Assembly (NCBI GenBank): GCA_964497315.1
Contig: CAZCCH010000004.1
Coordinates: forward strand, 18,307-82,306
Direction: 5' to 3'
DNA from: an uncultured Planctomycetia bacterium
Lineage (GTDB): Bacteria > Omnitrophota > Gorgyraeia > Taenaricolales > CAZCCH01
Length of the DNA: 64,000 bases
Shown: piece by piece, positions 1,362 through 19,199 of the stretch
Layout: each line of letters starts with the position of its first letter
Position numbering within the stretch: position 1 is the first letter of the stretch
Notes under the pieces: generated by a model
Database searches by the model: none
What the model was told of the DNA's origin: nothing
What the model saw: only the letters and a program-made list of their open reading frames with translations
Program-made: the position numbers and the translations under genes

Positions 1362-3376
<2,015 letters not shown>

Positions 3377-7397: not shown

Positions 7398-8071
7398 TTT
7401 TTAAGCTCGTTTATAATCTTTTTTAAATCCTGCCAGGCTAAAATTTTACCGTTTGGATTCCGTAATAAATATGCAGGGTGAAATGTTGGCATGGTCTTTA
7501 TTCCGCGAAAATCACAAAATTTGCCGCGCAATGTAGTAATGGGTTCCTTTTTGCCTAACAAGGCAAACACAGCATGTCTACCAAGACAGCAAATCACCTT
7601 TGGTGCAATAATATCAAGTTGTTTTAGGAGATAACTTCTGCAAATGGCTATTTCCGTAGGAAAGGGGTCGCGATTTTGCGGTGGCCTGCATTTAAGAACA
7701 TTGCATATAAAAACATCTTCTCTTTTTAATTTCATCGCCTCAATCATCTTTGTAAGGAGTTGTCCGGCCCTACCAACAAATGGTCTTCCTTGTTTATCCT
7801 CTTCAAAACCCGGTGCTTCTCCGACAAATACAAGCTTAGCCCCAGGATTACCCTCTCCTAATACAATATGTGACCTGCCCCTATGAAGTTCACATTCTTC
7901 GCAGGATAAAATTTTCTTATGAAATTGTCTTAATTGTTCTGCCTTGCTTTTCTTTGTTTCATTGGTCTTAATCGCTGAGGTATTCTTTAAATGGTACCCC
8001 TTTATTCCTGTTTCTTTTTCAGCAGAGATATAAGCTTTAACAGATTTTATTAACTCTTTGGTTTTCCTCAT
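7394..8071 (-). CDS. Uracil-DNA glycosylase, family 4 (4Fe-4S type).
   Basis: The product is 225 aa. The motif [35 protein letters not shown] matches the family-4 UDG signature GE[GA]PG...F.G.AG. The preceding CEECELHR cysteines fit the Fe-S ligands. Confidence 0.8.
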
Positions 8072-9186
8072 TTGTCCTCAATGGCTAATTCAATAATTCT
8101 TTTTGCAGAATTAGGTTTTGCCAATTTAGAAACACCATTTTTTAATTGCATAAGCTTTGTAGGATCAGTTATAAGTTCGGTGAGTCTTTCTTTTGCCTCT
8201 TTGACGTTTTTTACTTTTACAGCAGCTTGTAATTGCACTAAAGCTTTACAATTACCCGATTCTTGTCCAGGTATCGGTCTTAGCACAATCATCGCAAGAC
8301 CAGATGTAAGTGCCTCTGAGGTAGTCATACCCCCAGATTTACTTATCAACACATCGCTTACGCTCATAAGTTGGTGTATTCTTTCAGTAAATCCAAAAAT
8401 TTTAACCCTGTTGCATGCAGCATATTTCTTCTGTAAGTTTGTAAAAAGTCTTTTGTTTTTACCACAAACTACAATAAAATTAGCCTTCTCTGATACATTA
8501 ACTAATGAATCGGTTAATTTTCCAAGCGGCCCCACACCAAACCCACCTCCAATTATCAAAGCAATAAATAGGTTCTGCTCTAATCCTAGTTGTTTTTTAA
8601 GGGTTTTTTTATCATGGGGTTGTTCAAATTTTGGACTCACAGCTACACCTGTAACAGCTATTTTTTTATAATCAACCCCTCTGTCTATTAAATCCTGCAT
8701 TGTTTTCTCTGCAGCCACAGCATAAGTATCGACCTCCTTAGCTATCCAGAAAGAGTGAACTTTGAAATCTGTTACAGCAGTAACTAAGCGGCAATTGAGC
8801 CTGCCTTTCTGTTTCAAATAAGAAACTATCTCATTAGTCATGAAATGTGTTGCAATAACCACATCAGGTTGATAGTCACAAAGAAAACGTTCAAACTTTT
8901 TTAAGGCACATCCATTTATTAATCGCCTTATGGAGTTCGTTAGCTTATAAATCCTTTGGTTATCAAGGGAATAATAAAAAAATCCCCAGATAAGTGGAAG
9001 ATAATTTATTAAAGTTATATATTGCCTTCCATAGAGCCATTTAAAAAAGTGGCTTGAATAATCAAGCGAATCAATGAGTTTAATGTCATGTTCTGCGCTA
9101 GGTGTAAGTCTAAGTGCTTCATATAAGGCTTCTGCGCACTTTTTATGCCCTGCACCTGCTGAAGCGTATACGATTAAGATTTTCAT
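8068..9186 (-). CDS. MGDG-synthase/UgtP-like glycolipid (diacylglycerol) glycosyltransferase, GT28.
   Basis: The product is 372 aa. The N-terminus MKILIVYASAGAGHKKCAEALYEAL has the GxGH motif of the UgtP/YpfP/MGD family. The C-terminal half has GT-B-type UDP-sugar-binding features. Confidence 0.65.
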   Translation of the reverse strand: MKILIVYASAGAGHKKCAEALYEALRLTPSAEHDIKLIDSLDYSSHFFKWLYGRQYITLINYLPLIWGFFYYSLDNQRIYKLTNSIRRLINGCALKKFERFLCDYQPDVVIATHFMTNEIVSYLKQKGRLNCRLVTAVTDFKVHSFWIAKEVDTYAVAAEKTMQDLIDRGVDYKKIAVTGVAVSPKFEQPHDKKTLKKQLGLEQNLFIALIIGGGFGVGPLGKLTDSLVNVSEKANFIVVCGKNKRLFTNLQKKYAACNRVKIFGFTERIHQLMSVSDVLISKSGGMTTSEALTSGLAMIVLRPIPGQESGNCKALVQLQAAVKVKNVKEAKERLTELITDPTKLMQLKNGVSKLAKPNSAKRIIELAIEDK

Positions 9187-10089
9187 TTATTTTTTTATAA
9201 TTTTAGCAATTTGGCGGATGTGCTCAGGGGTACTACCGCAACATCCTCCGATGATGTTAATCTTTAGATTTAATAATTCCGGCAAGACCTTTGTGAAATC
9301 TTCTGGTGTTTCGGTAAAAATAGTTTTATCATTTTCCAGCTTAGGCATACCTGCATTTGACTGGGCAATAAGAAATATATCGTTTCTTTTTAACTCATCT
9401 AGTCGTTTTCTCATTAATTCTATGACTTTTACCATTTGTTTTATGCCGCATCCACAGTTTGAACCCATTATCTTAACACCCATATCAAGCATCTTATCGA
9501 CTGCCTCATCAGTAGAAACCCCCATCATTGTTTTACAGATGCCCGGTTGAAATGTCATGCTAGCTATCACTGGAAACTCGCTGCCAATGTTTAAGGCGGC
9601 TTCTTTGGCAGCCATAAAGGCTGCTTTTAATTCTCCTAAGTCAGCCATCGTTTCAATAATAATACCATCTACACCGGCTTGTACAAGTATCTCTGCTTGG
9701 TTTTTAAATACGTCAAAAAGTTCTTCGTACTTTAAATTTCCCACGGGTTCTATAAATTCCCCTGTTGGACCTATATCACCAAGCACATAGGTAGAATCTC
9801 CTGTTACTTCTTTAGCTAATTGCACAGCTTTCAAATTAAAGTCACTAAGTTTACCCTCAAGTCCTGCACGTTTTAACTTAAGGCTATTTGCTCCAAAGGT
9901 ATTTGTTGTGATAATGTCACACCCTGCATCAACATAGCTTTTATGGATAGATTTTATAACCTCAGGATGTGATAAATTCCACTCTTCTGGAAAATCACCT
10001 GTCTTTAGGCTTTGCTCTTGCAGGGCAGTACCCATAGCACCATCACAAATTAATACTTCTGACTTTAGCTTCTCTAATAAAGGTTTCAT
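9187..10089 (-). CDS. Stand-alone homocysteine S-methyltransferase (Hcy-binding) domain protein.
   Basis: The product is 300 aa. It has the N-terminal ICDGAMGTALQ and the C-terminal zinc-binding GGCCGSTPEHI motifs of the S-methyl_trans (MetH N-domain / MmuM) fold. Confidence 0.75.
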   Translation of the reverse strand: MKPLLEKLKSEVLICDGAMGTALQEQSLKTGDFPEEWNLSHPEVIKSIHKSYVDAGCDIITTNTFGANSLKLKRAGLEGKLSDFNLKAVQLAKEVTGDSTYVLGDIGPTGEFIEPVGNLKYEELFDVFKNQAEILVQAGVDGIIIETMADLGELKAAFMAAKEAALNIGSEFPVIASMTFQPGICKTMMGVSTDEAVDKMLDMGVKIMGSNCGCGIKQMVKVIELMRKRLDELKRNDIFLIAQSNAGMPKLENDKTIFTETPEDFTKVLPELLNLKINIIGGCCGSTPEHIRQIAKIIKK

Positions 10090-10092
10090 AGG

Positions 10093-10635
10093 TCAGTCCT
10101 TTTTTAAAATAACCTCTTTAACAGCCTGGAACAAATCTTTACATGTTTCATCTGGTTGAAACTCTAAAGTATCTAAATTCTCTTTCTTTGTTTTTCCGGA
10201 AAATACAAGTATCGTCTTGCAACCTAAATTCTTACCAGCCTCAATATCTCTTTCGTCATCACCTATGAAATAAACATCTTTAAAGCCACTGCTGAGGTTA
10301 CCTGCTGCTTGTTTAAAAAGTGTTGTTTTAGGTTTTCTGCAATCACAGTCATCTTTATGGGTGCAATAAAAAACACCCGCTATCTCACCTTTGTTCTCTT
10401 TAAGTCCTGAAAGCATCTTTTGTGTTATTTTATCTAAATCCGCTTGAGTGAAAAGCCCTTTACCGACACCCCTTTGATTTGAAATAACATATATCTTATA
10501 CCCTGCCTCTGTAAGTAGTCTTATTGCCTCAAGAGAACCGTCTATAAAATGGAAATCTTTTGCGTTTGTGACATACTCTCCATGACCAGGATATACATTT
10601 ATTACACCATCTCTATCGAGAAAAATTATCTTCAT
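10093..10635 (-). CDS. gmhB: D-glycero-D-manno-heptose 1,7-bisphosphate phosphatase (HAD-IIIA).
   Basis: The product is 180 aa. It has the HAD motif I FLDRDGVIN and the GmhB-type zinc site CTHKDDCDCRKP. The length fits GmhB. Confidence 0.75.
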   Translation of the reverse strand: MKIIFLDRDGVINVYPGHGEYVTNAKDFHFIDGSLEAIRLLTEAGYKIYVISNQRGVGKGLFTQADLDKITQKMLSGLKENKGEIAGVFYCTHKDDCDCRKPKTTLFKQAAGNLSSGFKDVYFIGDDERDIEAGKNLGCKTILVFSGKTKKENLDTLEFQPDETCKDLFQAVKEVILKKD

Positions 10636-10661
10636 TTAATTAAATGCCTTTTTGTTACTCT

Positions 10662-11297
10662 TTAGGCTTTAACAGCAATAATATTTAAATTCAAAGCCAG
10701 CTCTTCTCCTGGAAATACTTCATTGTTTATATCTTCTATTTGAAACCCGTTGCGGCCTAACAATTCTTTTATAGTAGCTTTGGTAAAAATATCCTTATGC
10801 AGTTGATAGGGTGAATTCTTTAGCGTGGGGTCACCATGGGTCAACCTATAAACCTCAAAAAGGTCAAATCTTTCACTGGAAATGCCCTTTTCTTGTTTAA
10901 TGTAGGCATCAATAATGGCATCGAAATCTGGGAGCCATTTAATAATAAGACGGCCGCCTTTTTTCAGTATCCTGTGAAAATCCTTTAGTATCTTATCCTG
11001 ACTATATCGGTAGAAATGCTCAAAGACAGCCTCCAACCTTACTTCAGAAGCTATGTCGGAGGGTACAAGATGAAGGTCTTCTGAGACATCCAACGCCGCA
11101 TCTGTGCCTTCTGTAGGGACTATATCTATATTGACGTAGTCTTTTAGCTTTTTATCTCCGCAGCCAATGTAGAGCTTCACGCCATCTTTCAATAAATCTT
11201 CTATCCTGGTCCTTAAAATCCTTTTTCTCCTGCACGAAATCCATGTCCACCTTCGCCAGATCTGCCTGGAATTTTTTGCTATCTTTTTATGCAACAT
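10662..11297 (-). CDS. Class I SAM-dependent methyltransferase.
   Basis: The product is 211 aa. It has the glycine-rich motif I LYIGCGDKKL and motif-post-I acidic residues, in a Methyltransf_11/23-like layout. Confidence 0.6.
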   Translation of the reverse strand: MLHKKIAKNSRQIWRRWTWISCRRKRILRTRIEDLLKDGVKLYIGCGDKKLKDYVNIDIVPTEGTDAALDVSEDLHLVPSDIASEVRLEAVFEHFYRYSQDKILKDFHRILKKGGRLIIKWLPDFDAIIDAYIKQEKGISSERFDLFEVYRLTHGDPTLKNSPYQLHKDIFTKATIKELLGRNGFQIEDINNEVFPGEELALNLNIIAVKA

Positions 11298-11344
11298 GGC
11301 TGCACCTTTTGGTTTTTGTCATCATTTTCATATTTGGCTCCATT

Positions 11345-12820
11345 TTAAAGGGGTAATGTTCCTTGGTTACTACTATATTTCTTTCGTATCGCAGGTAATA
11401 CTTCCTCACGGGTTCGCTTTAAATCATGGATTGTGTCATTATCATTCCAGAGAAGTCCAGTTATGCTTTCGATGCACAGCCTGTGCCCTTTGAACACCAG
11501 ATGTTCAAATGCTTCCATAAGGTACGCCCAGGCATTGCCTTCTCTTATTATTCTGTCTATCTCATTTATCAAAACCGCGGCCCCCCATCGGTTAAACTTG
11601 GCAATACCGATGAATTCACCGTAGGCCTTATCGGAAGATATGCATTTATGCTTCGGGAAGGGCAAAGAATAGTAGTCTTCCGGAAGGGTCATTATATTCC
11701 CTGCCGCGCAGATCTTTTCATCTTCCTCGTCACAGGCCTTTTCGTCTGCCCCCAGCACAATTTCATTAGGGTTTCTGATAATTTTTTTCAATATCTCGGG
11801 CTCAAAAATTATATCCCCATATATGACTATAAAACCCTTATGTAAAAATTCGCGTACGAGCCAAAACGTAATTAACATATTTGAACTCTCGTACCAGGGA
11901 TTATATACTATATTGATATCCGTCTTCTTTAGTTTCTCGTAAACAAAATTACGCACAAGGGCATCTCCCTTGCCAGTTGCGATGATAATATCCTCATCGT
12001 GAATATTGCATTTTTTAAACGCATCTAACTGTGTTTCTAAGATAGTTGTTCCTCCTGCATCCACTAAGCAGGTGTGGTGGGTTGCAGTCAAAGCACCCAT
12101 CCCCAAAGAAGGACCGGCAGAAAGAAGCACTATCTTGTATTTATCCTCCAGTTCTCTTATTATTTTTTTTACTATATCTACAGAGTGCTGGGAATACTCG
12201 CCGATGGCCGTTTCTTCGGAAAGCATGATAAAATCGGAACCGTCGGAAATAGCGTTGGCTATATCTACTACTTCTGACTTTGTAGGTTCTGATTTCTCTA
12301 CCATGGACAGAAGGAACTCCGTAGCTACAATTACCAGTTTCCCCTGTCTATTGCATTTACGTATAATCCTCTTCTGCGCATGCGGCAATTTCTCTATGCC
12401 TATTGCCGTAGCCAAATCTCCCCTGTCTATCATCACTACATCAGAGAAAAAAATAATGTTATCTAAATCTTCCAGCGCCTCGGCAGTTTCTATTTTGGCT
12501 ACAATCTTTATGTCAAGTCCTTTGAATTGATTCCTGAATTTTTCTACATCCTTATGGTGCTTAACATATGACAGGGCCACATAGTGTGGATTTATTTGTT
12601 TTGTTAGCCTAAGCAGATCTTCAAATGATAAGTTGTTAGTCCGAGTCTTTTTTCTTTCAGTAGGCAAGTCTAATAATAACTGATACCCCCATGCATCTTT
12701 TATTTTAGCTGCCAGGCTATGTATTTCTTCTTTCGTTCCAAAAGCACAGTTTATCCTGCCCACATCTATTCCCTGTAGTTTTTCTGTGTAAGGACTAACA
12801 GTTGAAATTATTTTGACCAT
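11345..12820 (-). CDS. Fusion protein: pyruvate-kinase-like TIM-barrel (PEP-binding) domain (N) plus LicC/MobA-like nucleotidyltransferase domain (C).
   Basis: The N-terminal ~240 aa align to the PK barrel (IVAKIETAEALEDLDNII..MIDRGDLATAIG; VIVATEFLLSM; PTKSEV.DIANAISDG.DFIMLSEETAIGEY, compared with PK MLSGETAKGKYP). They lack the PK B- and C-domains. The C-terminal ~240 aa carry an NTP-transferase glycine loop LLSAGPSLGMG and a LicC-like NPWYESSNMLITFWLV....IVIYGDIIF segment. Confidence 0.55.
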   Translation of the reverse strand: MVKIISTVSPYTEKLQGIDVGRINCAFGTKEEIHSLAAKIKDAWGYQLLLDLPTERKKTRTNNLSFEDLLRLTKQINPHYVALSYVKHHKDVEKFRNQFKGLDIKIVAKIETAEALEDLDNIIFFSDVVMIDRGDLATAIGIEKLPHAQKRIIRKCNRQGKLVIVATEFLLSMVEKSEPTKSEVVDIANAISDGSDFIMLSEETAIGEYSQHSVDIVKKIIRELEDKYKIVLLSAGPSLGMGALTATHHTCLVDAGGTTILETQLDAFKKCNIHDEDIIIATGKGDALVRNFVYEKLKKTDINIVYNPWYESSNMLITFWLVREFLHKGFIVIYGDIIFEPEILKKIIRNPNEIVLGADEKACDEEDEKICAAGNIMTLPEDYYSLPFPKHKCISSDKAYGEFIGIAKFNRWGAAVLINEIDRIIREGNAWAYLMEAFEHLVFKGHRLCIESITGLLWNDNDTIHDLKRTREEVLPAIRKKYSSNQGTLPL

Positions 12821-12825
12821 AACTT

Positions 12826-13983
12826 TCAGCCTTTCCCAGTGAGAATGTCAGTAATACACCGAGCTGCTATATCTGAAGACTGCCCGAAGGCATATATACT
12901 CTCATTCCTAAGCTGGGCAATGCGTTGTCTATTGGTGTCAGTATGTGCAATTAACCTGGAGATAACCTTAGGCACCATATCTAGTTTGTCCGGAACAACT
13001 ACCTCTCCTATTTCAGAACGGATAGAAACCTCTAACGGCTCAAGTCCCAATTCTTTATAATTGGGGTTTTTGGCCGCAACAGGTACATCAATAGAAATAA
13101 CCGGTTTCTCAGTACCAAAGGCATATTCAAGAGCAACACCTGAGTAGTCGCATATCAGACAGTCAGCACGAATCAGCGAATCATCAGTGGCTACGGATTT
13201 CTCCAAGATGAAATGCGGGTTTGATCCAAATTTAAAAACAAGCGAGGCTATTAACTCCGGAGAACGCTTTGTGGTTTCTGGATGCGGCCTCATAATTACT
13301 GCAAAACCTGCTTTTAAGAGTATGTCGGTCAGGCGCTCACCGCAGCTTTCGAGAAGATTACTATCTCCCCACGAAGGCGCAATAAGAACCATTGTCTTTT
13401 CCTCCGAAGATAAATCCTTTGCCGATAAGTATTTTTGATACGCAGCATAGATTCGTTCCAGCCGGTAATATCCACCTTCAAGGAGCTTTTTGGATTTTAG
13501 CCCAGCAAGTTCCTCACGCCTGCGAATTTCTTTCATGTGGTAGGGGCCAGGGCACAATATATAGTCATAATGATCATAAGACCCTTCGCGGAATTTCATA
13601 TGCGTGCTGGCGAGGGAGTGAAAAATATAAACATACTGGACCGGATTGTATGAGCGTTTAAGGTGAAACTGATTGAGGTCAGTCAGGGTAATAACAAAAA
13701 CCCTGCAATTTACAAAGAGCATAAAAACAGCAAGTAATTTGTCTAGGTAAAAGGCATTTATCTTCTCTGTCTGTTTTTCAAAAATCGGGTCGTTAAAATC
13801 TGAGGTAATATAACATAGGTTTCGACTGTATTTTTCCGTAAGCTCTGCAATTACACCCTCAAAGTAGGGGTAATAACCCTCGTGTTCTGAATAAAAAATT
13901 ATTTCCTTTTTCTTTATCGGTGTCCTGAAGAAAAACCTACAGAAATCTGCAATTTCTCGAAAAAAATTGGATGTGCGATACAA
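12826..13983 (-). CDS. TagB/TagF-family CDP-alcohol (CDP-glycerol-type) phosphotransferase.
   Basis: The product is 385 aa. Glyphos_transf-like motifs include VLIAPSWGDSN (compared with ILYAPTWR) and IMRPHP (compared with KPHP). The size and layout match teichoic acid primases and polymerases. Confidence 0.6.
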   Translation of the reverse strand: MYRTSNFFREIADFCRFFFRTPIKKKEIIFYSEHEGYYPYFEGVIAELTEKYSRNLCYITSDFNDPIFEKQTEKINAFYLDKLLAVFMLFVNCRVFVITLTDLNQFHLKRSYNPVQYVYIFHSLASTHMKFREGSYDHYDYILCPGPYHMKEIRRREELAGLKSKKLLEGGYYRLERIYAAYQKYLSAKDLSSEEKTMVLIAPSWGDSNLLESCGERLTDILLKAGFAVIMRPHPETTKRSPELIASLVFKFGSNPHFILEKSVATDDSLIRADCLICDYSGVALEYAFGTEKPVISIDVPVAAKNPNYKELGLEPLEVSIRSEIGEVVVPDKLDMVPKVISRLIAHTDTNRQRIAQLRNESIYAFGQSSDIAARCITDILTGKG

Positions 13984-14062
13984 TTCTCACAACTCCTTTT
14001 TTATGGTATTTTATCCTTCAACTTCTATTTCTAAAAAAGACAGCATGTCACAAGTGTGTTTT

Positions 14063-15247
14063 CTATTTAAAAATATTCCCTTTCTGCCTACTCTGTTTTT
14101 TTATCCACTGGCTAATTTCTGGCCTCATGAATTCTTCAGGCGGAGTCATTCCTTCGCCAAACATCTTGCGTATCTTTGTCCCACTTATCTGGATTCTGCA
14201 GGCCTGGGGGTGAGAACAAGTTTTCTCTGTAGCTACTGCTCTACACTTTTTGCAATAAAATGGGCCGTTGAACCGCAACGGAGCAATGCCCAAGTCAGTG
14301 AAATTATCAAAAATTTTATGGGCCGCGTAGGTATCGTAGTAACCTTTTACTCCGGCATGATCCCTTCCTATAACTATGTGCGTGCAGCCGTAATTTTTCC
14401 TTACGATCGCATGAAACAGTGCTTCCCTTGGACCCGCAAACGCCATCTTCATATTAAGCGGCGCCAAAAGCACCCTTGCCTTGGGGTAATAATGTCGGAT
14501 AAGAAGCCTATAACTTTCAAGAACAAGAGTGGGAGAAAAATCGCCTTCTTTTGTCTGGCCAACTATGGGGTTTATGAATAAACCGTCCACAAATTCAAGC
14601 GCGCACCTCTGTAGGTATTCGTGTGCCCTGTGAACGGCATTTCTCGTATGAAACGCACAGATTGTCTTCCAGCCAAGCTTTTTAAAAATCTTTCTCGTCT
14701 GATGCGGGTCCATTATCATGTCCCTGAAGGGCAGCTTCGGCTTGTTTAGCAATATAATCTCACCGCCTAAAAGCACATCGCCCATTGCATCTACGGCTGC
14801 AACGCCGGGATGATCCGGATTTGCTGTACCATAGACAGCTTCACACCTCTGGGCTTTTTCATGTACGAATTTTTCTTCTACAAAAATCACCGCCACGGCT
14901 TCGTTTTGCGTGCTTGTAATAAGTAATTGTTGCCCGGACTTTATTCCGGAGGCATCTTTTTCGCTGACCGAGAACGTTACGGGTATGCTCCAAGGGGTTC
15001 CGTCTGAAAGTCTGCTTCTTTTAAGTACCGAAACATAATTCCGCTTTTTCATAAATCCGGTAAGCGGGCTAAAACCACCAACAGCAATCTGCTCTATATC
15101 AGTAAGTACATTGGTATCAACAGCAATTTTTTGCAGCTTTGCAACGTGTGCTAAAATTCTCTTTCGCTTTTTGCCTGCGGCAACTCTGTTTACTAATATG
15201 TTCTTCATGTCACATAAAAGGCCTCCCGTCCATATCCTTGAATTCAT
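14063..15247 (-). CDS. sat: Sulfate adenylyltransferase (ATP sulfurylase).
   Basis: The product is 394 aa. It has GFSPLTGFM, AFHTRNAVHRAHE (a QTRN-HRAH-type motif with Q replaced by H) and IGRDHAGV motifs. There is no fused APS-kinase domain. The start codon is uncertain; an internal Met (MKNILVNR) is an alternative. Confidence 0.8.
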   Translation of the reverse strand: MNSRIWTGGLLCDMKNILVNRVAAGKKRKRILAHVAKLQKIAVDTNVLTDIEQIAVGGFSPLTGFMKKRNYVSVLKRSRLSDGTPWSIPVTFSVSEKDASGIKSGQQLLITSTQNEAVAVIFVEEKFVHEKAQRCEAVYGTANPDHPGVAAVDAMGDVLLGGEIILLNKPKLPFRDMIMDPHQTRKIFKKLGWKTICAFHTRNAVHRAHEYLQRCALEFVDGLFINPIVGQTKEGDFSPTLVLESYRLLIRHYYPKARVLLAPLNMKMAFAGPREALFHAIVRKNYGCTHIVIGRDHAGVKGYYDTYAAHKIFDNFTDLGIAPLRFNGPFYCKKCRAVATEKTCSHPQACRIQISGTKIRKMFGEGMTPPEEFMRPEISQWIKKQSRQKGNIFK

Positions 15248-17285
15248 CCTCGGGAATACCTAGGATTTTCAATATCGTGGGTACCACATCAACTATTGCC
15301 GGATTTGCAGCTTCTATCTTTCTGTTGGTAAAAAGAACCCCGGGCAAAAGGGACGGATCAGAGAGATGGTCGCCGCTCCAGGCCTTTTTGTTATCTTCAA
15401 TTATTTCCTCAGGCACGCTGCCTAAAGCGGTCTGCCAGGAAGAGCGGTAACCGATGTTATATCCAACAAGCAAGTCCGGCGCCTCATTTATATAAGGCCC
15501 CCAGAAAATCTCGTCTCTGTTATAGACTTTGTTTATTACATTGCTGGCGAATTTTTCATCATAAAGGGAGGTCAGCCTATCTGCGATCTCTTTTTTTATT
15601 TTTTGCGTCTCGGCCCCGGGCCGTACGCACCCCTTTGCCTCCCGGCCGATCTGATTAACAAAAATTTCACCAAAACCTACGCTGTAGGCTGTGGTACGAG
15701 ACCAGTCTACATCCTTAAAAAATTCGCCTCCTTTAACCGCGGCTGGATCTTCCAGGAAAAGAAACCCATTTTCCCTAAGCCATGTGTTCAAATGAACCGA
15801 TCTCCGAAACGTCTTAAATCCATGGTCAGACAAAACTATCAAAAGCGTATCCTCATCCGTCTTCGCAAACACCCTGCCTAGAATATTATCCATCCTCTCA
15901 TACATCTTATCAATCACACCCGAGTAAACAACAGCTAATTCTTCGTCATATGCCGGATGCTGAGGGTCTATAAAACGCCAGAATGCATGCTGAATGAAAC
16001 TGGGCGAGTCAAGATAATAGAAAAAAACGCCTTTTTTGAAACGCTCAAGTTCGATATCAAGCATTTGTTGTTTTTCCTCAATAATCATATCGGCCTGTTC
16101 TAAAAACGCAACTTCATCAAGTTTATTTTCATTTAGCGCCCATGTATCATGAGGCATGCCCAAGGTATGATAGAGGCCCAGCCTATCTGCGAGCTCTTTT
16201 GAATAACCAGCAGGGTATGATATCGCAAAAGGTGGATCCCGGGGGTCAAAATTGATGGGGGAGATATAAAGTTCGAATTCCGGTGTTATGCTCTTGAGGT
16301 AAAATTTACATATCCCCTTGACCCTCTTGAAAAAATTAATTTTAAAAGTAAAGGCCTGCCATTGACTCCACTGTTTAGGCCTAAGCATGAACTGGTTTCC
16401 TCCAACATCAACAGTTGCAGTTTGGGCCTGTTCATCTATAGCCACCTTCATGGGTATTATTATATCATTTGCTTTTCTTAAAGATGTGTCCACGGGGCCG
16501 GATAAATAGGTATTTATATTAGCTCCTCTTTTGGTAACTTTAATGAGTCGACCTCCAATATCCTTGCCTTTTTCAATGTCTGCTGTGGTATAAAAAGAGG
16601 ATGTACCCATAGTCCCCCGTATATCCGGCACGCCCATACCTGAAAGCAAGCGGCCGTAAACCTTATCAGGTGGAAATGCATTGGGGCAACACAGAAGGAC
16701 TGTGGGAATTTTATATTTACGCGTAATATTCCAGAAAGGCGTACCGCCAGCTACCCTCTTAAGCTTCTTTGTATCTTTATCAACCCGGCTGAAAGCCAAA
16801 TATGGCATGTATGTATTTGGGTCACGTTTTAGGAAACCATAGGCACCGTGTTTACCTGCATTGGATCCGGTAGCAAAGTTGGTCCAGGCCACTAGCGATT
16901 CCGCAGGATAAGAAGTAGCTAAACGCGCATAAGTACCTTGCTCTTTCAGTTTTTTGAAATTGGGAAGCTTGCCTTCTCCCATCAACCGTTCCATAATCTC
17001 AGGCTCCAGACCATCCAACCCAATTATGACTATTTTTTCTTTGCAGCCCGCCACTTCTTTTGTGATATTTATATAAAACACAACGCCGGCAATAACAGCC
17101 GTTAGAATTAACAGCCATAACAGCTTCTTTCCCTTGAGGAAAAATCTTAAAATGCGTCTCGCCCAGAAAAGCAGCCCGCCAAGGAAACCTATTATGACTC
17201 CCAGGATAATCGAACCCATGGTAAAAAACGGCAGTCCCACTCCTGGATCTATGTATCCAAAGTTTATTAGTCTAAATATCTCCAT
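15210..17285 (-). CDS. Membrane-anchored alkaline-phosphatase-superfamily enzyme, type I phosphodiesterase / nucleotide pyrophosphatase (NPP)-like.
   Basis: The product is 691 aa. Two N-terminal hydrophobic helices are followed by the PF01663-type IVIIGLDGLEPEIMERL opening and metal-site-like residues. The gene overlaps sat by a few codons. Confidence 0.6.
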   Translation of the reverse strand: MEIFRLINFGYIDPGVGLPFFTMGSIILGVIIGFLGGLLFWARRILRFFLKGKKLLWLLILTAVIAGVVFYINITKEVAGCKEKIVIIGLDGLEPEIMERLMGEGKLPNFKKLKEQGTYARLATSYPAESLVAWTNFATGSNAGKHGAYGFLKRDPNTYMPYLAFSRVDKDTKKLKRVAGGTPFWNITRKYKIPTVLLCCPNAFPPDKVYGRLLSGMGVPDIRGTMGTSSFYTTADIEKGKDIGGRLIKVTKRGANINTYLSGPVDTSLRKANDIIIPMKVAIDEQAQTATVDVGGNQFMLRPKQWSQWQAFTFKINFFKRVKGICKFYLKSITPEFELYISPINFDPRDPPFAISYPAGYSKELADRLGLYHTLGMPHDTWALNENKLDEVAFLEQADMIIEEKQQMLDIELERFKKGVFFYYLDSPSFIQHAFWRFIDPQHPAYDEELAVVYSGVIDKMYERMDNILGRVFAKTDEDTLLIVLSDHGFKTFRRSVHLNTWLRENGFLFLEDPAAVKGGEFFKDVDWSRTTAYSVGFGEIFVNQIGREAKGCVRPGAETQKIKKEIADRLTSLYDEKFASNVINKVYNRDEIFWGPYINEAPDLLVGYNIGYRSSWQTALGSVPEEIIEDNKKAWSGDHLSDPSLLPGVLFTNRKIEAANPAIVDVVPTILKILGIPEDEFKDMDGRPFM

Positions 17286-17300
17286 ATCGTCAATCCTGTT

Positions 17301-19199
17301 TTATTGTAAATATCCAAGTCCTTGTAATTGCCGTTTTGTTGTTTCGTCAATCTTCACCGACTCCGTAGAACCCTCCTTGGACTTAGAACCCATTTTTTCT
17401 GAAAGTATCATATTTTCAAAAATATAATTAACTATCAGCCCGTGACACATCTCGGTGGCCTTCGGCTCTTTGCCGATAAGATTATTCTGTTCTTGAGAAT
17501 CTATATCTATATTGTACAACTCTCGTTTTTTACTCCATAGGTTATATATGTATTTCCATGGCGGGATCCTCACGGAAACCAGATGGCTGTCAGGAAGCAT
17601 GAATGTAGGTCCTAATTCACTGAAGGCTGGCCTTGGGCTTGCCTTTTGCGGTTCCTGCGACAAAATCCCCTGCATATCCATGCCCTGCATGATATCTTCC
17701 GGCTCCAGATCCAGGACAGACAATATAGTAGGCATAATGTCTATACCCTGCACCTGTTCTTGAAGCTTTAGGCCGGAAGGAAAAACTCCAGGCAATCTCA
17801 TTACAAGAGGTATCTTTATATCATCTTCATATAAGAATTCCCCGGGTTTTATCTCATCTAACTCATCCAGACTCCTACCATTATCCGCACTAACAATAAT
17901 AAGGGTCTTATCCTCTATTCCCAGCTTACGCAACTTTTCCATCAATAGACCTATATGATAATCTGTATACCAAACCTGAACCTCATACATAGAAACTTCC
18001 GTTTTGCTGGGATGTGCAGAACCTACTTCATCGGCATATACAAAATCGGTATTTGATAAATCGTGCCTTATATGTGGTCCGTGAACATCCATATAATGAA
18101 GATATAGGAAGAAATTTTTGTCTTTGAATTTATCTATCCAATTAATGGCTTCGGCGGTAAGTAAATCCGCCGTTGGATAACAGCTGGGAGGAGTTTTTAA
18201 TAGGTCTGAATGCGTCCCCAGCTTATAATACAAGTCGTACCATCTAGATGCATCTCTCTCTATAAGGTTTACATAAAAATCAAAGCCCTGGTCAAGATTG
18301 AACTGCTTCGAAACCCATGGATCGGTCATAAAAGCGCAGGTTGCATATCCATTTGCCTGCAATACTTCAGCAATAGTAGTCATCGACTCAGGAAGACCTT
18401 TATTTTCATCGACTACACCGTGAACTGAGGGATAGGTGGAGGTAAAAAGAGATGGAACTAAGGCGTGCGTCCAGTTGGTCTGGGTTATGGCATTTAAAAA
18501 AACCGTTCCTTCCCCTGCAAGAACATCTACGTTAGGACTTAAGCGCTTTAATTGTCCGTAAGCTCCTAATTTAGCTGGAAGTAATGAATCTACAATTATC
18601 AGAATTACGTTTAAGTCTTCACCTCGCGCAAATTCCGAAAAGGCCTTTTTAAAAGAAAATCCGCGCTGTACATATCCTGACGCCAACCACTCCCCAGATA
18701 GAAACAGCACTAGGATAATGCTTATGGTTATAATTCTAATGGGGCGGTTGCTTTTTGAAATAATTTTCAATAGCATAAAAAATATAAGAAAAAACAACAC
18801 CGCATATACAACCAGAAGAAAATCCGCAACCCAATGAAAAAGATAGTGTCTGTATCCGAAAAATATATTACTAAGCCACCAGTCAACCGCATACGCGGCT
18901 GCAAAGGAGAAAAACAAGGTAAGGTATATGGATATGAGCCGACCCGTAGAAACTTTTTTCTTGTAAATTAGTCTGGCCGCAACAAATATTAACCCAAATA
19001 CAATCCCGCTAAGGCCGCAAAATATGCCGTAAATCGCCAGGTTGGCTAAAAAGGGGTGTGTGCCTTCTGTAAAATAGAGGTATGGCGAAGCAAATAGCAC
19101 CTTAACCACGCTAATAAAAAACGCGAATGCAACCCCCGTCAAAAGGCCCACGCCTACAGCTTTAATAAAGTAATCTATTTTACTGCGGTATGCCACCAT
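17301..19199 (-). CDS. LtaS/EptA/MdoB-like membrane phospho-transferase (sulfatase fold, Thr nucleophile).
   Basis: The product is 632 aa. About five N-terminal TM helices precede an extracytoplasmic sulfatase-fold domain starting ILIIVDSLLP. The sulfatase signature position reads THALVPS...YPSVHG, with T in place of the formylglycine Cys/Ser. LtaS and phosphoethanolamine transferases have the same substitution. Confidence 0.6.
   Translation of the reverse strand: MVAYRSKIDYFIKAVGVGLLTGVAFAFFISVVKVLFASPYLYFTEGTHPFLANLAIYGIFCGLSGIVFGLIFVAARLIYKKKVSTGRLISIYLTLFFSFAAAYAVDWWLSNIFFGYRHYLFHWVADFLLVVYAVLFFLIFFMLLKIISKSNRPIRIITISIILVLFLSGEWLASGYVQRGFSFKKAFSEFARGEDLNVILIIVDSLLPAKLGAYGQLKRLSPNVDVLAGEGTVFLNAITQTNWTHALVPSLFTSTYPSVHGVVDENKGLPESMTTIAEVLQANGYATCAFMTDPWVSKQFNLDQGFDFYVNLIERDASRWYDLYYKLGTHSDLLKTPPSCYPTADLLTAEAINWIDKFKDKNFFLYLHYMDVHGPHIRHDLSNTDFVYADEVGSAHPSKTEVSMYEVQVWYTDYHIGLLMEKLRKLGIEDKTLIIVSADNGRSLDELDEIKPGEFLYEDDIKIPLVMRLPGVFPSGLKLQEQVQGIDIMPTILSVLDLEPEDIMQGMDMQGILSQEPQKASPRPAFSELGPTFMLPDSHLVSVRIPPWKYIYNLWSKKRELYNIDIDSQEQNNLIGKEPKATEMCHGLIVNYIFENMILSEKMGSKSKEGSTESVKIDETTKRQLQGLGYLQ

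What the first reader, a model, noticed from the sequence alone, without database searches (positions are those of the whole stretch)
8068..19199. Teichoic-acid-type machinery (UgtP-like glycolipid synthase, TagF-like, LtaS-like, NPP-like) inside an LPS-type locus
A GT28 diacylglycerol glycosyltransferase (8068..9186), a TagB/TagF-family polymerase or primase (12826..13983), an LtaS/EptA-like enzyme with five TM helices and a Thr nucleophile in place of the sulfatase formylglycine (17301..19199), and a two-TM NPP-type phosphodiesterase (15210..17285) all occur together. They sit with heptosyltransferase, GmhB, ArnT and MsbA homologues. These functions are normally lineage-segregated between Gram-positive and Gram-negative bacteria. 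Their co-occurrence suggests either phosphodiester-linked head-group decoration (phosphoglycerol, phosphoethanolamine or phosphocholine) of an LPS-like molecule, or a genuinely hybrid glycolipid-anchored polyol-phosphate polymer in a diderm.
Basis: partly seen in the sequence, partly recalled or inferred. Interest (0 to 1): 0.7.

Follow-up and report, generated by a model that had tools for sequence, protein, structure and literature searches.

The report
Glycan head-group cassette with ATP sulfurylase
Inside the very large surface-sugar gene cluster of an uncultured, probably Omnitrophota bacterium sits a portable gene set (ATP sulfurylase, a pyruvate-kinase-like fusion protein, a teichoic-acid-type transferase and two membrane-anchored phosphatase-family enzymes) that most likely adds a small charged group to surface sugars by a route I could not find described.

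Summary
The four domain calls are correct. 8068-9186 is a GT28/MGDG-synthase-like transferase and 12826-13983 is TagF-family. 15210-17285 is a 2-TM NPP-fold protein. 17301-19199 is a 5-TM sulfatase-fold protein with Thr in place of formylglycine.

The "Gram-positive machinery in a Gram-negative locus" reading is not supported. This fusion lies next to a sulfurylase in all 20 informative loci (Omnitrophota, Planctomycetota including Kuenenia, Margulisiibacteriota). Ordinary PK loci never do (0/141). One contig fuses the PK barrel to the sulfurylase.

The TagF-like protein belongs to a family 55-63% identical across bacteria and DPANN archaea. It is always paired with a donor-making enzyme and a membrane-anchored AP-superfamily protein. 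A Woesearchaeota genome carries the same TagF–PK–Sat–5TM-sulfatase-like cassette.

The 632-aa catalytic domain resembles S1 sulfatases, not LtaS or EptA. GT28 and the GmhB-like gene belong to a conserved backbone.

Best reading: a mobile head-group decoration cassette involving activated sulfate. Its chemistry is unresolved and I found no description of it.

The parts
17301..19199 (-). 632-aa membrane protein with five N-terminal TM helices (N-in) and an extracytoplasmic S1-sulfatase-fold domain. Thr244 is the nucleophile in place of formylglycine (motif W-T-H-A-L-V-P-S-L-F-T-S). Metal ligands are D204 and D439-N440, with H373. The C-terminal tail is ...LQGLGYLQ.
   Evidence: Pfam Sulfatase 1.3e-41 and SGSH_C 1.2e-11. 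Alignment to 3ed4. Hydropathy. AF2 pLDDT 81 with 5 helices. Foldseek top 50 are all S1 sulfatases, PMH or choline sulfatase. T244 is invariant. The topology comes from the positive-inside rule read on the sequence (inference).
15210..17285 (-). 691-aa NPP/AP-superfamily protein. It has two N-terminal TM segments separated by a +6 loop, so the catalytic domain is predicted to be outside. The catalytic set is intact (GLDG Asp, Ser in the nucleophile column, H433, D487-H488, H640). It carries a roughly 150-aa insertion relative to soluble relatives. Its N-terminal motif is G-Y-I-D-P-G-V-G.
   Evidence: Pfam Phosphodiest 9.8e-31. TM segments. Alignment with five soluble module homologues at 26-32% identity. 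No PDB sequence hit.
14063..15208 (-). ATP sulfurylase (sulfate adenylyltransferase, PUA_2 plus catalytic domain). The likely start is the Met at 15208, directly after the NPP stop codon.
   Evidence: Pfam ATP-sulfurylase 9.1e-86 and PUA_2 1.1e-45. NCBIfam NF003166 scores 482 bits against a cut-off of 387. Gene callers give 381 aa. The HRAHE and GRDHAG motifs are visible in the sequence.
12826..13983 (-). 385-aa TagF/TagB-family (Glyphos_transf) transferase, about the size of a single catalytic unit.
   Evidence: Pfam PF04464 8e-12. No NCBIfam or PDB sequence hit. The family is 55-63% identical across phyla and domains. Contexts. Invariant FH, STHM, APS-G, RPHPET and DxSG motifs.
11345..12820 (-). 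491-aa fusion. Residues 1-228 form a pyruvate-kinase A-domain barrel without the B (lid) or C domain; the PEP/Mg ligands are kept. Residues 229-491 form a PntC/LicC/IPCT-like nucleotidyltransferase fold that lacks the canonical GxGTR Arg and PK Lys.
19215..20192 (-). 325-aa class I SAM methyltransferase with an N-terminal Cys-rich segment. A methyltransferase recurs beside the module in L007, L011 and L174, so it may belong to the cassette.
   Evidence: Pfam Methyltransf_23 4.5e-21. Related methyltransferase in L011 at 1.5e-16. Methyltransferases in L007 and L174.
10662..11297 (-). 211-aa weak methyltransferase-like protein downstream of the fusion. Membership in the cassette is uncertain.
   Evidence: Pfam Methyltransf_23 1.3e-3, below cut-off.
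10093..10635 (-). 180-aa HAD-IIIA phosphatase, GmhB-like. It is a backbone gene that stays with GT28/UDG/PriA in relative L090.
   Evidence: NCBIfam NF006506 scores 168 bits against a cut-off of 178. L090 orthologue at 9e-83 in the same position.
8068..9186 (-). 372-aa GT28 MGDG-synthase/UgtP-like glycosyltransferase. It is a backbone gene, not demonstrably part of the cassette.
   Evidence: Pfam MGDG_synth 8.9e-32. NCBIfam UgtP equivalog scores 227 against a cut-off of 500. L090 orthologue at 2e-129 next to UDG-PriA-Fmt.

Best explanation
Window positions 11345-19199, perhaps extending to 20192, hold a horizontally mobile head-group decoration cassette. It is embedded in a glycan-assembly locus of more than 55 kb (LPS or O-antigen type) in an uncultured, probably Omnitrophota bacterium.

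Proposed mechanism:
1. The ATP sulfurylase makes APS. The enzyme identity is shown; its use is inferred.
2. The lid-less pyruvate-kinase barrel spends PEP to drive or extend this unfavourable activation. It could supply or regenerate NTP, or phosphorylate a nucleotide held by its fused PntC/LicC-like domain. This step is inferred from the invariant adjacency and from a PK-barrel::sulfurylase fusion.
3. The TagF-family enzyme, at the cytoplasmic face, transfers the head group from an NMP-leaving-group donor to a lipid-linked glycan. The head group would be a tetrahedral anion. This step is inferred from the family's contexts.
4. After export, the 5-TM Thr-type sulfatase-fold enzyme and the 2-TM NPP-fold enzyme relocate or trim that group on the outer face through a covalent Thr/Ser intermediate. 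LtaS, EptA and OpgB work this way. This step is inferred from topology and catalytic residues.

The head group most likely contains sulfate. I cannot tell whether it is sulfate alone (from APS) or a sulfated or PEP-derived phospho-compound activated by the PntC-like domain; I rate the two about equally.

The GT28 and GmhB-like genes are backbone neighbours, not cassette members.
For: Enzyme identities are given.

Sat and the PK fusion are coupled:
- The fusion lies next to a sulfurylase in the window plus 19 other informative loci: L010-L021, L090, L091 and L094-L098. These span Omnitrophota, Planctomycetota (including Ca. Kuenenia, L018) and Margulisiibacteriota.
- None of 141 ordinary PK loci has a sulfurylase.
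- L099 encodes a PK-barrel::Sat fusion flanked by three AP-superfamily genes and a second Sat.

AP-superfamily partners recur:
- A soluble Thr-type sulfatase-like protein occurs in 7 of 13 loci and a soluble NPP-like protein in 5 of 13.
- The NPP-likes share the nucleophile-W-x-x-F-x-TG-x-x-x-GKHG motif with the window protein.

The TagF-like family context is consistent:
- The family is 55-63% identical across phyla.
- It sits with PepM-NT/Ppd/Fe-ADH phosphonate genes in L173 and L177, and with a canonical LicC-type NT plus MFS in L176 and L178.
- It sits with PK plus Sat in the window and in the Woesearchaeota locus L174.
- Every one of these contexts has a membrane-type AP/sulfatase-like gene nearby, TM-anchored wherever the gene is intact.
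- L174 repeats the window's cassette: TagF-like 58% identical, Sat 46%, 5-TM sulfatase-like 28%, plus PMT GT-C, MT and GT2.

In Sat contexts the TM-AP domain is S1-sulfatase-like with SGSH_C. In phosphonate/NT contexts it belongs to a different AP branch.

The closest structural relative of the fusion's second domain is PntC. PntC is often fused to PEP mutase in cell-surface phosphonate pathways (PMC6697681), which is a direct architectural precedent.

No other nucleotidyltransferase and no Pfam sulfotransferase is present in the 64-kb window.
Against: - No step has biochemical support, and the head group is not identified.
- The PntC-like domain lacks the Arg and Lys that canonical relatives use for NTP/PPi, so it may not be a nucleotidyltransferase at all.
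- The Omnitrophota PK barrel lacks the lid domain and the His of the SHG motif, so ADP phosphorylation is doubtful.
- No APS kinase, APS reductase or known sulfotransferase lies in the cassette, so the fate of APS is unknown.
- The window's two TM-anchored AP proteins are only distantly related to the soluble module versions (80 and 128-176 bits). They face the periplasm, where nucleotide donors are absent.
- L090, the closest syntenic relative, has TagF-like (a divergent one), Sat and PK-NT but no AP-family genes.
- In Planctomycetota the pair sits outside glycan loci, beside a PAP2 membrane protein. The target there may be a lipid.
- The taxonomic assignment rests on best hits (71% identity to an Omnitrophota MAG), not on marker genes.
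Confidence: 0.5

Rival explanations
1. This is a PAPS-independent glycan sulfation route with new enzyme chemistry. APS is the direct donor. The TagF-family enzyme in the cytoplasm, and/or the Thr-type sulfatase-fold enzyme, acts as a sulfotransferase. The PK-like barrel uses PEP to pull sulfate activation, in place of APS kinase or pyrophosphatase.
For: - In TagF-like contexts a canonical nucleotidyltransferase is present in 4 of 4 non-Sat loci and absent in the Sat loci (the window and L174). Sat, itself a nucleotidylyltransferase that makes an NMP-linked tetrahedral anion, occupies that slot.
- L174 and L099 have no NT domain at all.
- The NT-like domain in the window has lost its PPi-binding residues.
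- The TM-AP domain in Sat contexts is S1-sulfatase-like.
- No canonical sulfotransferase or APS kinase lies nearby.
Against: - No TagF-fold or AP-fold sulfotransferase is known.
- The window's TagF-like protein is about 60% identical to homologues in phosphonate clusters, and all catalytic motifs are invariant. This argues for the same phosphoryl or phosphonyl chemistry and the same nucleotide.
- The sulfatase-fold protein lacks the sulfate-binding Lys/His of S1 sulfatases in the 3ed4 alignment.
- The window's AP enzymes are periplasmic, away from APS.
Confidence: 0.2
2. This is ordinary envelope decoration from phospholipid donors. The 5-TM Thr enzyme would be an EptA/OpgB-type phosphoethanolamine or phosphoglycerol transferase and the NPP protein a periplasmic phosphodiesterase. 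Both would act on LPS independently of Sat, PK-NT and the TagF-like protein, which would merely be neighbours.
For: - The protein has 5 TM helices, an outside AP domain, a Thr nucleophile and Asp/His metal ligands.
- The window has LPS-type neighbours: GT9, Wzy_C and an MsbA-like exporter.
- Weak NCBIfam hits to YejM, LtaS and MCR families.
Against: - The family scores are far below the cut-offs: 15-22 bits against 825-1250.
- Fold neighbours are S1 sulfatases, with the SGSH_C subdomain that EptA and LtaS lack.
- The same gene combination recurs in an archaeon that has no LPS.
- AP-family genes recur beside Sat/PK in many loci.
Confidence: 0.12
3. A glycosyl-diacylglycerol anchor made by GT28 would be extended with a polyol-phosphate chain by the TagF-like and LtaS-like enzymes, giving a teichoic-acid-like polymer in a diderm.
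For: GT28/UgtP-like, TagF-family and LtaS-architecture genes lie within 11 kb on one strand. TagF-like polymerases do make teichoic-acid-like capsules in Gram-negatives (PMC5974469).
Against: - There is no TagD, TarI/J or GtaB-type precursor gene in the window.
- GT28 is syntenic backbone with UDG/PriA in L090, where the AP genes are absent.
- The 632-aa protein is not in the LtaS family.
- The TagF-like family elsewhere accompanies small head-group (phosphonate) pathways, not polymer loci.
- The 385-aa size is that of a single catalytic unit.
Confidence: 0.05
4. The clustering is coincidental and the genes are housekeeping. Sat would serve assimilatory sulfate reduction and the PK fusion would be the cell's glycolytic pyruvate kinase with an unusual regulatory domain. 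Their position in the glycan locus would have no functional meaning.
For: - Housekeeping genes flank the region: PGK, GAPDH, Fmt, PriA, UDG and homocysteine methyltransferase.
- In Planctomycetota the pair is not in a glycan locus.
- An NT-like domain without catalytic residues could be an allosteric module replacing the PK C-domain.
Against: - The adjacency holds in 20 of 20 loci across four phyla, and there is a covalent PK::Sat fusion.
- The Omnitrophota PK lacks the lid domain.
- No cysH, sir or cysC lies beside Sat in any locus examined.
- The pair recurs with TagF-like and AP-family genes.
Confidence: 0.05

Closest known systems
Phosphonate tailoring (Pnt) pathway: PEP mutase fused to the cytidylyltransferase PntC, followed by a phosphotransferase to cell-surface glycans (PMC6697681); Fom1 in fosfomycin synthesis is built the same way (own knowledge)
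   Different: The barrel is pyruvate kinase, not PEP mutase. There is no phosphonopyruvate decarboxylase. The NT-like domain has lost the canonical Arg and Lys. An ATP sulfurylase is the invariant partner.
Lic pathway (LicA/LicC/LicD phosphocholine decoration) and the IPCT/DIPPS cytidylyltransferase-phosphotransferase pair
   Different: There is no choline or inositol kinase or synthase. The transferase is TagF-family, not LicD. Sulfurylase and PK barrel are involved.
TagF-like capsule polymerases of Gram-negative pathogens (PMC5974469) and TagB/TagF/TarL of Gram-positive wall teichoic acid synthesis
   Same: The Pfam Glyphos_transf domain scores above the gathering threshold. The gene sits in a diderm-type glycan locus.
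   Different: There is no detectable sequence similarity to solved TagF or TarL chains, even with a family profile. There is no fused GT domain and no CDP-polyol supply genes. The family spreads across CPR, DPANN and Chloroflexota with about 60% identity.
LtaS / EptA (MCR) / OpgB / YejM: polytopic membrane enzymes with an outside AP-superfamily domain
   Same: The protein has five TM helices, an extracytoplasmic domain, a Thr nucleophile and Asp/His metal site residues.
   Different: The catalytic domain is of the S1-sulfatase branch with the SGSH_C subdomain. The NCBIfam scores are negligible. It is genetically tied to a sulfurylase.
PAPS synthesis modules in glycan or Nod-factor loci (Sat-CysC fusions, NodPQ) and the Campylobacter O-methyl-phosphoramidate pathway (own knowledge)
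   Same: A sulfate- or anion-activation gene is embedded in a surface-glycan locus and paired, or even fused (L099), with a phosphoryl-transfer enzyme. Methyltransferases lie nearby.
   Different: The partner is a PK barrel, not a P-loop APS kinase. No classical sulfotransferase is present.

Membership tests
LtaS (lipoteichoic acid synthase) | Five N-terminal TM helices followed by an extracellular AP-type domain | tested here: met
   Hydropathy. AF2 gives helices 7-36, 49-79, 85-114, 120-149 and 152-178. The charge distribution gives N-in/C-out (my reading of the sequence).
LtaS (lipoteichoic acid synthase) | Thr nucleophile with Asp/His metal ligands | tested here: met
   T244 aligns to the formylglycine position of 3ed4. 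T244, H373 and D439 are invariant; D204 is at least 90% conserved. The window protein has N440 where relatives have H.
LtaS (lipoteichoic acid synthase) | Sequence membership (NCBIfam NF053595) and closest solved relatives being LtaS/LtaP | tested here: not met
   19.5 bits against a cut-off of 970. LtaP 4uop scores 1e-7 against arylsulfatase 3ed4 at 5e-27. No LtaS, EptA or PbgA among the 50 best Foldseek matches.
EptA/MCR phosphoethanolamine transferases | Sequence membership in curated family models | tested here: not met
   MCR-12 and MCR-13 models score 17 and 15 bits against cut-offs of 1200 and 1250.
S1 formylglycine sulfatases | C/S-x-P-x-R formylglycine motif | tested here: not met
   T-H-A-L-V stands at that position. 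The family consensus is W-T-x-P-S with no Arg.
S1 formylglycine sulfatases | Overall fold including the C-terminal subdomain | tested here: met
   Pfam Sulfatase plus SGSH_C. Foldseek E about 1e-22 to 1e-24 and target TM-score about 0.7 to S1_16, S1_19 and related sulfatases.
TagF/TagB glycerophosphotransferases (PF04464) | Pfam domain above the gathering threshold | tested here: met
   45.2 bits against 22.1, residues 15-297.
TagF/TagB glycerophosphotransferases (PF04464) | CDP-glycerol or CDP-ribitol supply (TagD, TarI/J) in the locus | tested here: not met
   No CTP_transf_like or IspD-type gene is present in the 64-kb window.
TagF/TagB glycerophosphotransferases (PF04464) | Catalytic His residues of TagF | tested here: inconclusive
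   The invariant F-H and R-P-H-P-E-T motifs resemble the W-H-G and H-P motifs I recall from TagF. No alignment to a solved TagF could be obtained.
NPP / type I phosphodiesterase (PF01663) | Domain plus nucleophile and two-metal ligand set | tested here: met
   Pfam 9.8e-31. The GLDG Asp is conserved in all members that cover that column. Ser (Thr in relatives) sits in the nucleophile column, and H433, D487-H488 and H640 are invariant.
UgtP/YpfP diglucosyl-diacylglycerol synthase | Equivalog-level sequence membership | tested here: not met
   NF010135 scores 227 bits against a cut-off of 500. Only the MGDG_synth and GT28_C domains are met.
ATP sulfurylase (Sat) | Curated family score and catalytic motifs | tested here: met
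   NF003166 scores 482 against 387. H-T-R-N, H-R-A-H-E and G-R-D-H-A-G are visible in the sequence. Gln of the usual QTRN motif is His here.
Pyruvate kinase | A-domain barrel with PEP/Mg ligands (Lys, Glu, Asp; Arg/Asn of the N-terminal strand) | tested here: met
   K109, E111 and D135 align with the PK catalytic residues. They are invariant in 60 homologues, and R22/N24 are at least 90% conserved.
Pyruvate kinase | B (lid) domain and C (regulatory) domain; curated family score | tested here: not met
   The B domain is deleted in the Omnitrophota clade. The C domain is replaced by the NT fold. TIGR01064 scores 192 against a cut-off of 306.
PntC/LicC-type cytidylyltransferases | Fold | tested here: met
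PntC/LicC-type cytidylyltransferases | G-x-G-T-R and P-K signature residues for the NTP | tested here: not met
   In the HMMER alignment to LicC, Arg is replaced by Gly and Lys by Thr. Stand-alone relatives at 33-37% identity keep both.

The most novel reading that the evidence does not exclude
The cassette encodes a sulfation route that needs neither APS kinase nor a classical sulfotransferase. A pyruvate-kinase-derived barrel uses PEP to drive sulfate activation. In one contig this barrel is fused to the sulfurylase; elsewhere it is fused to a nucleotide-binding PntC-like fold. A TagF-fold enzyme and/or a Thr-type sulfatase-fold enzyme then transfers the sulfuryl group from APS to surface glycans or lipids. 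The route would be shared by Omnitrophota, Planctomycetota (including anammox bacteria), Margulisiibacteriota and DPANN archaea.
Probability: 0.2. Interest if true: 0.85.

Novelty: new variant of a known kind. Interest (0 to 1): 0.6.

Why it matters
Nucleotide-activated head groups such as phosphocholine, phosphoethanolamine, phosphonates, phosphoramidate and sulfate shape how microbial surfaces are recognised by hosts, phages and partners.

This finding points to a further, undescribed supply route. It is built from an ATP sulfurylase and a remodelled pyruvate kinase. It is conserved across several phyla that are mostly uncultured, many of them ultra-small epibionts, and also across anammox Planctomycetota.

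If the sulfate reading is right, it would add a new way to activate and transfer sulfate. It would also assign functions to two large families now labelled only 'sulfatase-like hydrolase/transferase' and 'CDP-glycerol glycerophosphotransferase family protein'.

The finding also shows that a TagF-like enzyme paired with a polytopic AP-superfamily enzyme is a general two-compartment design. It is not a Gram-positive hallmark.

Tried and rejected
- I looked for a recurring PHP phosphoesterase, which could be a pAp phosphatase supporting a PAPS route. The 280-aa PHP-like ORF of L091 has no counterpart in any other locus or in the PAP2 proteins, so I dropped the idea.
- I looked for residues that separate TagF-like proteins of Sat contexts from those of NT/phosphonate contexts. 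With four sequences on each side, only a few conservative differences near the FH/STHM motif appeared. This does not decide the question.
- A profile search of the TagF-like family against PDB sequences found nothing, so the catalytic residues could not be mapped on TagF.
- I scanned 54 further ORFs around the module for classical sulfotransferases or APS kinase. None is among the recurring families. PAP2 (6 ORFs) and PTS_EIIA_2 (4 ORFs) recur in Planctomycetota.
- Literature searches for the gene combination, for AP-fold or APS-dependent sulfotransferases, and for Sat-PK fusions found nothing relevant.
- The metagenome scan returned only seven further module loci because the pattern also matched ordinary pyruvate kinases.
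- I considered ComA-like phosphosulfolactate synthesis. I set it aside because no APS reductase or other source of sulfite lies in the cassette.
- I considered PPDK-like recycling of AMP plus PPi. I set it aside because there is no phospho-His domain.
- I considered APS used as an adenylyl donor. I set it aside because it gives no energetic gain over ATP.

Full report
**Setting.** All ORFs of 200 aa or more in the 64-kb window lie on the minus strand. From about 8 kb to the end the window is one long glycan-assembly locus. It holds many GT2, GT4 and GT9 glycosyltransferases, a WecA/MraY-type initiating transferase, Wzy_C and an MsbA-like ABC exporter. It also holds a GT2/PMT_2 (GT-C) pair, sugar-modifying dehydrogenases, aminotransferases, acetyl- and formyl-transferases, and two AsnB-type amidotransferases. 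Four B12-binding radical SAM enzymes and several methyltransferases complete it. Below 8 kb lie housekeeping genes: UDG, PriA, Fmt, two GalT/HIT-family genes, GAPDH and PGK. Identical proteins occur on marine or environmental metagenome contigs (ENA SUTE22-1 series, JGI 3300009127). The closest relatives of the key proteins are from Candidatus Omnitrophota MAGs, at 71% identity. The organism is therefore probably an Omnitrophota bacterium. This phylum belongs to the PVC group and consists mostly of ultra-small, host-associated cells (PMC10066038).

**Checking the observation.** The four calls are right. 8068-9186 has MGDG_synth plus GT28_C. 12826-13983 has the TagF-family Glyphos_transf domain above threshold. 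15210-17285 is an NPP/Phosphodiest protein and 17301-19199 is a Sulfatase-family protein.

The 632-aa protein has five N-terminal TM helices, by hydropathy and in an AlphaFold model. The distribution of Arg and Lys (N-terminus +2, loop 2 +5, loop 4 +3, loops 1 and 3 about 0) places the catalytic domain outside the cytoplasm. This is my reading of the sequence. In the alignment to E. coli arylsulfatase 3ed4, T-H-A-L-V occupies the place of the formylglycine motif S-S-P-S-R. This Thr is invariant in 30 and in 60 relatives, together with H373 and D439. D204 and H440 are conserved in at least 90% of them, and the window protein has Asn at position 440.

The 691-aa protein has two TM segments separated by a loop with six positive charges. 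That predicts an N-out/C-out topology. It keeps the full AP/NPP catalytic set, with Ser where its relatives have Thr.

**What 'LtaS-like' does and does not mean.** The architecture of the 632-aa protein is that of LtaS, EptA and OpgB, but its catalytic domain is not from that branch. Its best solved relatives by sequence are formylglycine sulfatases (3ed4 at 5e-27, against LtaP at 1e-7). The curated LtaS, YejM and MCR models score 15-22 bits against cut-offs of 825-1250. It carries the SGSH_C subdomain typical of S1 sulfatases. The 50 best Foldseek matches of the model are all S1 sulfatases, choline sulfatase or phosphonate monoester hydrolase.

Only three full-length 5-TM homologues were found, at 52-55% identity. 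The catalytic domain belongs to a large, uncharacterised Thr-type family annotated 'sulfatase-like hydrolase/transferase'.

- 14063-15208 is a bona fide ATP sulfurylase. NF003166 scores 482 bits against a cut-off of 387.
- 11345-12820 is a fusion protein.
  - Residues 1-228 are a pyruvate-kinase A-domain barrel. It keeps the Lys/Glu/Asp and Arg/Asn ligands for PEP and Mg.
  - It has neither the B (lid) nor the C domain. The lid is present in the roughly 580-aa Planctomycetota versions.
  - Residues 229-491 adopt a nucleotidyltransferase fold. The model has pLDDT 93.
  - In the alignment to LicC, the signature Arg of G-x-G-T-R is Gly and the Lys of P-K is Thr. Stand-alone relatives at 33-37% identity keep both residues.

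**A conserved Sat/PK-fusion module.**
- In 12 of 12 GTDB genomes that encode the fusion, an ATP sulfurylase gene is its immediate neighbour.
- The same holds in L090 and L091 and in five further metagenome contigs. L007, L008 and L092 are the same contigs as L010, L012 and L020 and are not counted again.
- With the window, that makes 20 of 20 informative loci. One further contig starts at the fusion gene and is uninformative.
- The taxa are Omnitrophota, Planctomycetota (including Ca. Kuenenia) and Margulisiibacteriota.
- None of 141 loci around ordinary or stand-alone lid-less pyruvate kinases has a sulfurylase.
- Contig L099 encodes a single protein made of the lid-less PK barrel and a complete sulfurylase. 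It is flanked by an NPP-like, a Thr-type sulfatase-like and a third AP-superfamily gene, plus a second sulfurylase. This fusion ties the PK barrel functionally to the sulfurylase rather than only to the NT-like domain.
- Soluble Thr-type sulfatase-like proteins (370-388 aa, no TM) occur in 7 of 13 loci and soluble NPP-like proteins (504-559 aa) in 5 of 13.
- In Planctomycetota the pair lies outside glycan loci, next to a large PAP2 membrane protein and a PTS_EIIA_2 gene.
- No APS kinase, APS reductase or Pfam sulfotransferase was seen in any of these neighbourhoods or anywhere in the window.

**The TagF-like family.** The 385-aa protein has no detectable similarity to solved TagF or TarL sequences. 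It belongs to a family whose members are 55-63% identical in Omnitrophota, Bipolaricaulota, Chloroflexota, Patescibacteria and DPANN archaea. That level of identity indicates horizontal spread under strong constraint. Six independent contexts were read:
- L173 and L177 carry PEP mutase fused to a nucleotidyltransferase, phosphonopyruvate decarboxylase, Fe-ADH (plus TauD in L177) and a further LicC-type NT. This is a cell-surface phosphonate pathway of the kind described in PMC6697681.
- L176 and L178 carry a canonical LicC-type NT and an MFS transporter.
- The window and the Woesearchaeota locus L174/L175 carry PK plus Sat.

In all six contexts a membrane-type AP/sulfatase-like protein is encoded nearby, and it is TM-anchored wherever the gene is intact. 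L174 repeats the window's cassette almost gene for gene:
- a TagF-like gene (58% identical);
- PK, with the lid but without an NT domain;
- Sat (46% identical);
- a 64-aa TM ORF;
- a 5-TM sulfatase-like protein (28% identical, Ser at the nucleophile position);
- a PMT-type GT-C, a methyltransferase and a GT2.

An archaeon has no LPS, so the cassette is not an LPS-specific device.

**What belongs to the cassette.** L090, a syntenic relative, has the order MsbA-GT2-PMT_2-GT2-...-(divergent) TagF-like-Sat-PK/NT-GT2-GT2-epimerases-HAD-GT28-UDG-PriA-Fmt-GalT-GalT. Its HAD and GT28 are clear orthologues of the window's (9e-83 and 2e-129) and stay with the housekeeping block. The AP-family genes are absent there. 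I therefore treat GT28 and the GmhB-like phosphatase as backbone, and 11345-19199 (perhaps with the methyltransferase at 19215-20192) as the cassette.

**Mechanism.**

Shown by the analyses:
- the identities and folds of the enzymes;
- the retained or lost catalytic residues;
- the predicted topologies;
- the conserved gene partnerships.

Inferred:
1. Sat makes APS.
2. The PK barrel spends PEP to push or pull this unfavourable step, or to phosphorylate a nucleotide presented by the fused NT-like fold or by Sat itself. The lid that normally holds ADP is dispensable exactly where such a partner domain is fused.
3. The TagF-family enzyme transfers a tetrahedral anionic head group from an NMP-leaving-group donor to a lipid-linked glycan.
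4. The two outward-facing AP-superfamily enzymes relocate or trim it through a covalent Thr/Ser intermediate.

Two variants remain open, and I rate them roughly equal.

In the first variant the head group is a phospho-compound activated by the PntC-like domain and probably sulfated. In its favour:
- the roughly 60% identity of the TagF-like protein to homologues in phosphonate clusters, with all motifs invariant;
- the PntC fold;
- a CDP-alcohol phosphotransferase gene directly after the fusion in L091.

In the second variant the head group is sulfate itself, transferred from APS. In its favour:
- Sat takes the place that a canonical NT occupies in every non-Sat context;
- L174 and L099 have no NT domain;
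- the NT-like domain has lost its PPi-binding residues;
- the TM-AP domain is S1-sulfatase-like only in Sat contexts.

**Comparison with known systems and novelty.** The design, a PEP-binding barrel fused to a PntC-like fold plus a transferase in a glycan locus, is closest to phosphonate tailoring. It is more distantly related to the Lic and IPCT/DIPPS systems. The cytoplasmic transferase combined with a polytopic outside AP enzyme recalls the division of labour in teichoic acid and LPS decoration. TagF-like enzymes in Gram-negative bacteria are already known (PMC5974469).

What I could not find described is the invariant partnership of a sulfurylase with a remodelled pyruvate kinase and its link to TagF-like and Thr-type sulfatase-fold enzymes. 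I class it as a new variant of a known kind of system. There is a real possibility, about 0.2, of new sulfuryl-transfer chemistry.

**Limits.**
- The taxonomic placement rests on best hits.
- The topologies come from hydropathy, charge and AlphaFold helices, not from a dedicated predictor.
- Context sampling of the TagF-like family is small (six loci).
- Whole genomes could not be inspected for cysC, cysH or sulfotransferases.
- Nothing here is biochemical.

Noticed in passing
window 15210-17285 (N-terminus, residues 9-17) and L174 11306-11500: The N-terminal anchor of the NPP-fold protein carries G-Y-I-D-P-G-V-G followed by a TM helix and a basic stretch. In the Woesearchaeota cassette the same Y-I-D-P-G-T-G/TM/basic unit is a separate 64-aa ORF between Sat and the 5-TM sulfatase-like gene. 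It may be a detachable membrane-anchor module.
   Followed up: partly
window 17301-19199 (C-terminus ...LQGLGYLQ); L007 5195-6784, 7505-7732; L008 4685-6364; L011 1511-3166; L091 6216-7865; L099 27-1541: A shared C-terminal tail, acidic stretch then L-[KQ]-x-L-G-Y-[LIV], ends the window's sulfatase-fold protein, most of its Thr-type relatives (consensus L-x-S-L-G-Y), the soluble NPP-like proteins and a 75-aa ORF in L007. The window's own NPP-fold protein lacks it. It could be a common docking peptide.
   Followed up: partly
window 20229-21668, 26471-27877, 27890-29311, 46997-48442, 62601-63731: Four B12-binding radical SAM enzymes and one SPASM radical SAM enzyme lie inside the glycan locus, with at least six SAM methyltransferases. 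This suggests heavy C- and O-methylation of the sugars. B12-rSAM genes also sit beside the cassette in L007, L091 and L176.
   Followed up: no
window 61663-62628: An ORF has a D-glucuronyl C5-epimerase C-terminal domain (4.9e-34), the family that acts in heparan-type polymers. Together with a sulfurylase in the same locus, this hints at a uronic-acid-containing, possibly sulfated polysaccharide.
   Followed up: no
window 2378-3376 and 3403-4434: Two tandem GalT/HIT-family genes (GalP_UDP_transf, DUF4921/DUF4931, Ap4A_phos_N hits) are conserved in the same place in L090. From general knowledge, this branch of the HIT superfamily includes ADP-sulfurylase and nucleotide phosphorylases. A link to APS metabolism was not examined.
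   Followed up: no
window 1-64000: All ORFs of 200 aa or more (about 60 genes) are on one strand across the whole 64 kb, with GC skew negative throughout. This is an unusually strict co-orientation.
   Followed up: no
L022-L089 and L100-L172 (for example L022 1546-2268, L028 9992-10678): Stand-alone lid-less pyruvate-kinase barrels of about 225-240 aa, 37-41% identical to the window's PK domain, are common in CPR bacteria, DPANN archaea and Dehalococcoidia. They are never next to a sulfurylase, and their function is unclear.
   Followed up: partly
L008 7784-9736, L092 7871-9709 and five further Planctomycetota loci: In Planctomycetota the Sat/PK-fusion pair is preceded, divergently, by a 610-650-aa PAP2-family membrane protein and often a PTS_EIIA_2 gene. 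The target there may be a membrane lipid rather than a glycan.
   Followed up: partly
window 9187-10089: A stand-alone homocysteine S-methyltransferase domain (MetH N-terminal type, 300 aa) is inserted between the GmhB-like gene and GT28. It is absent from the syntenic relative L090.
   Followed up: no
L173 1572-2927 with 21-1070 and 14851-15438: In the phosphonate-type context L173 the AP/sulfatase-like gene appears split or truncated (349-aa and 195-aa pieces without TM segments) next to a DDE transposase. This is consistent with the cassette being mobile and sometimes decaying.
   Followed up: no
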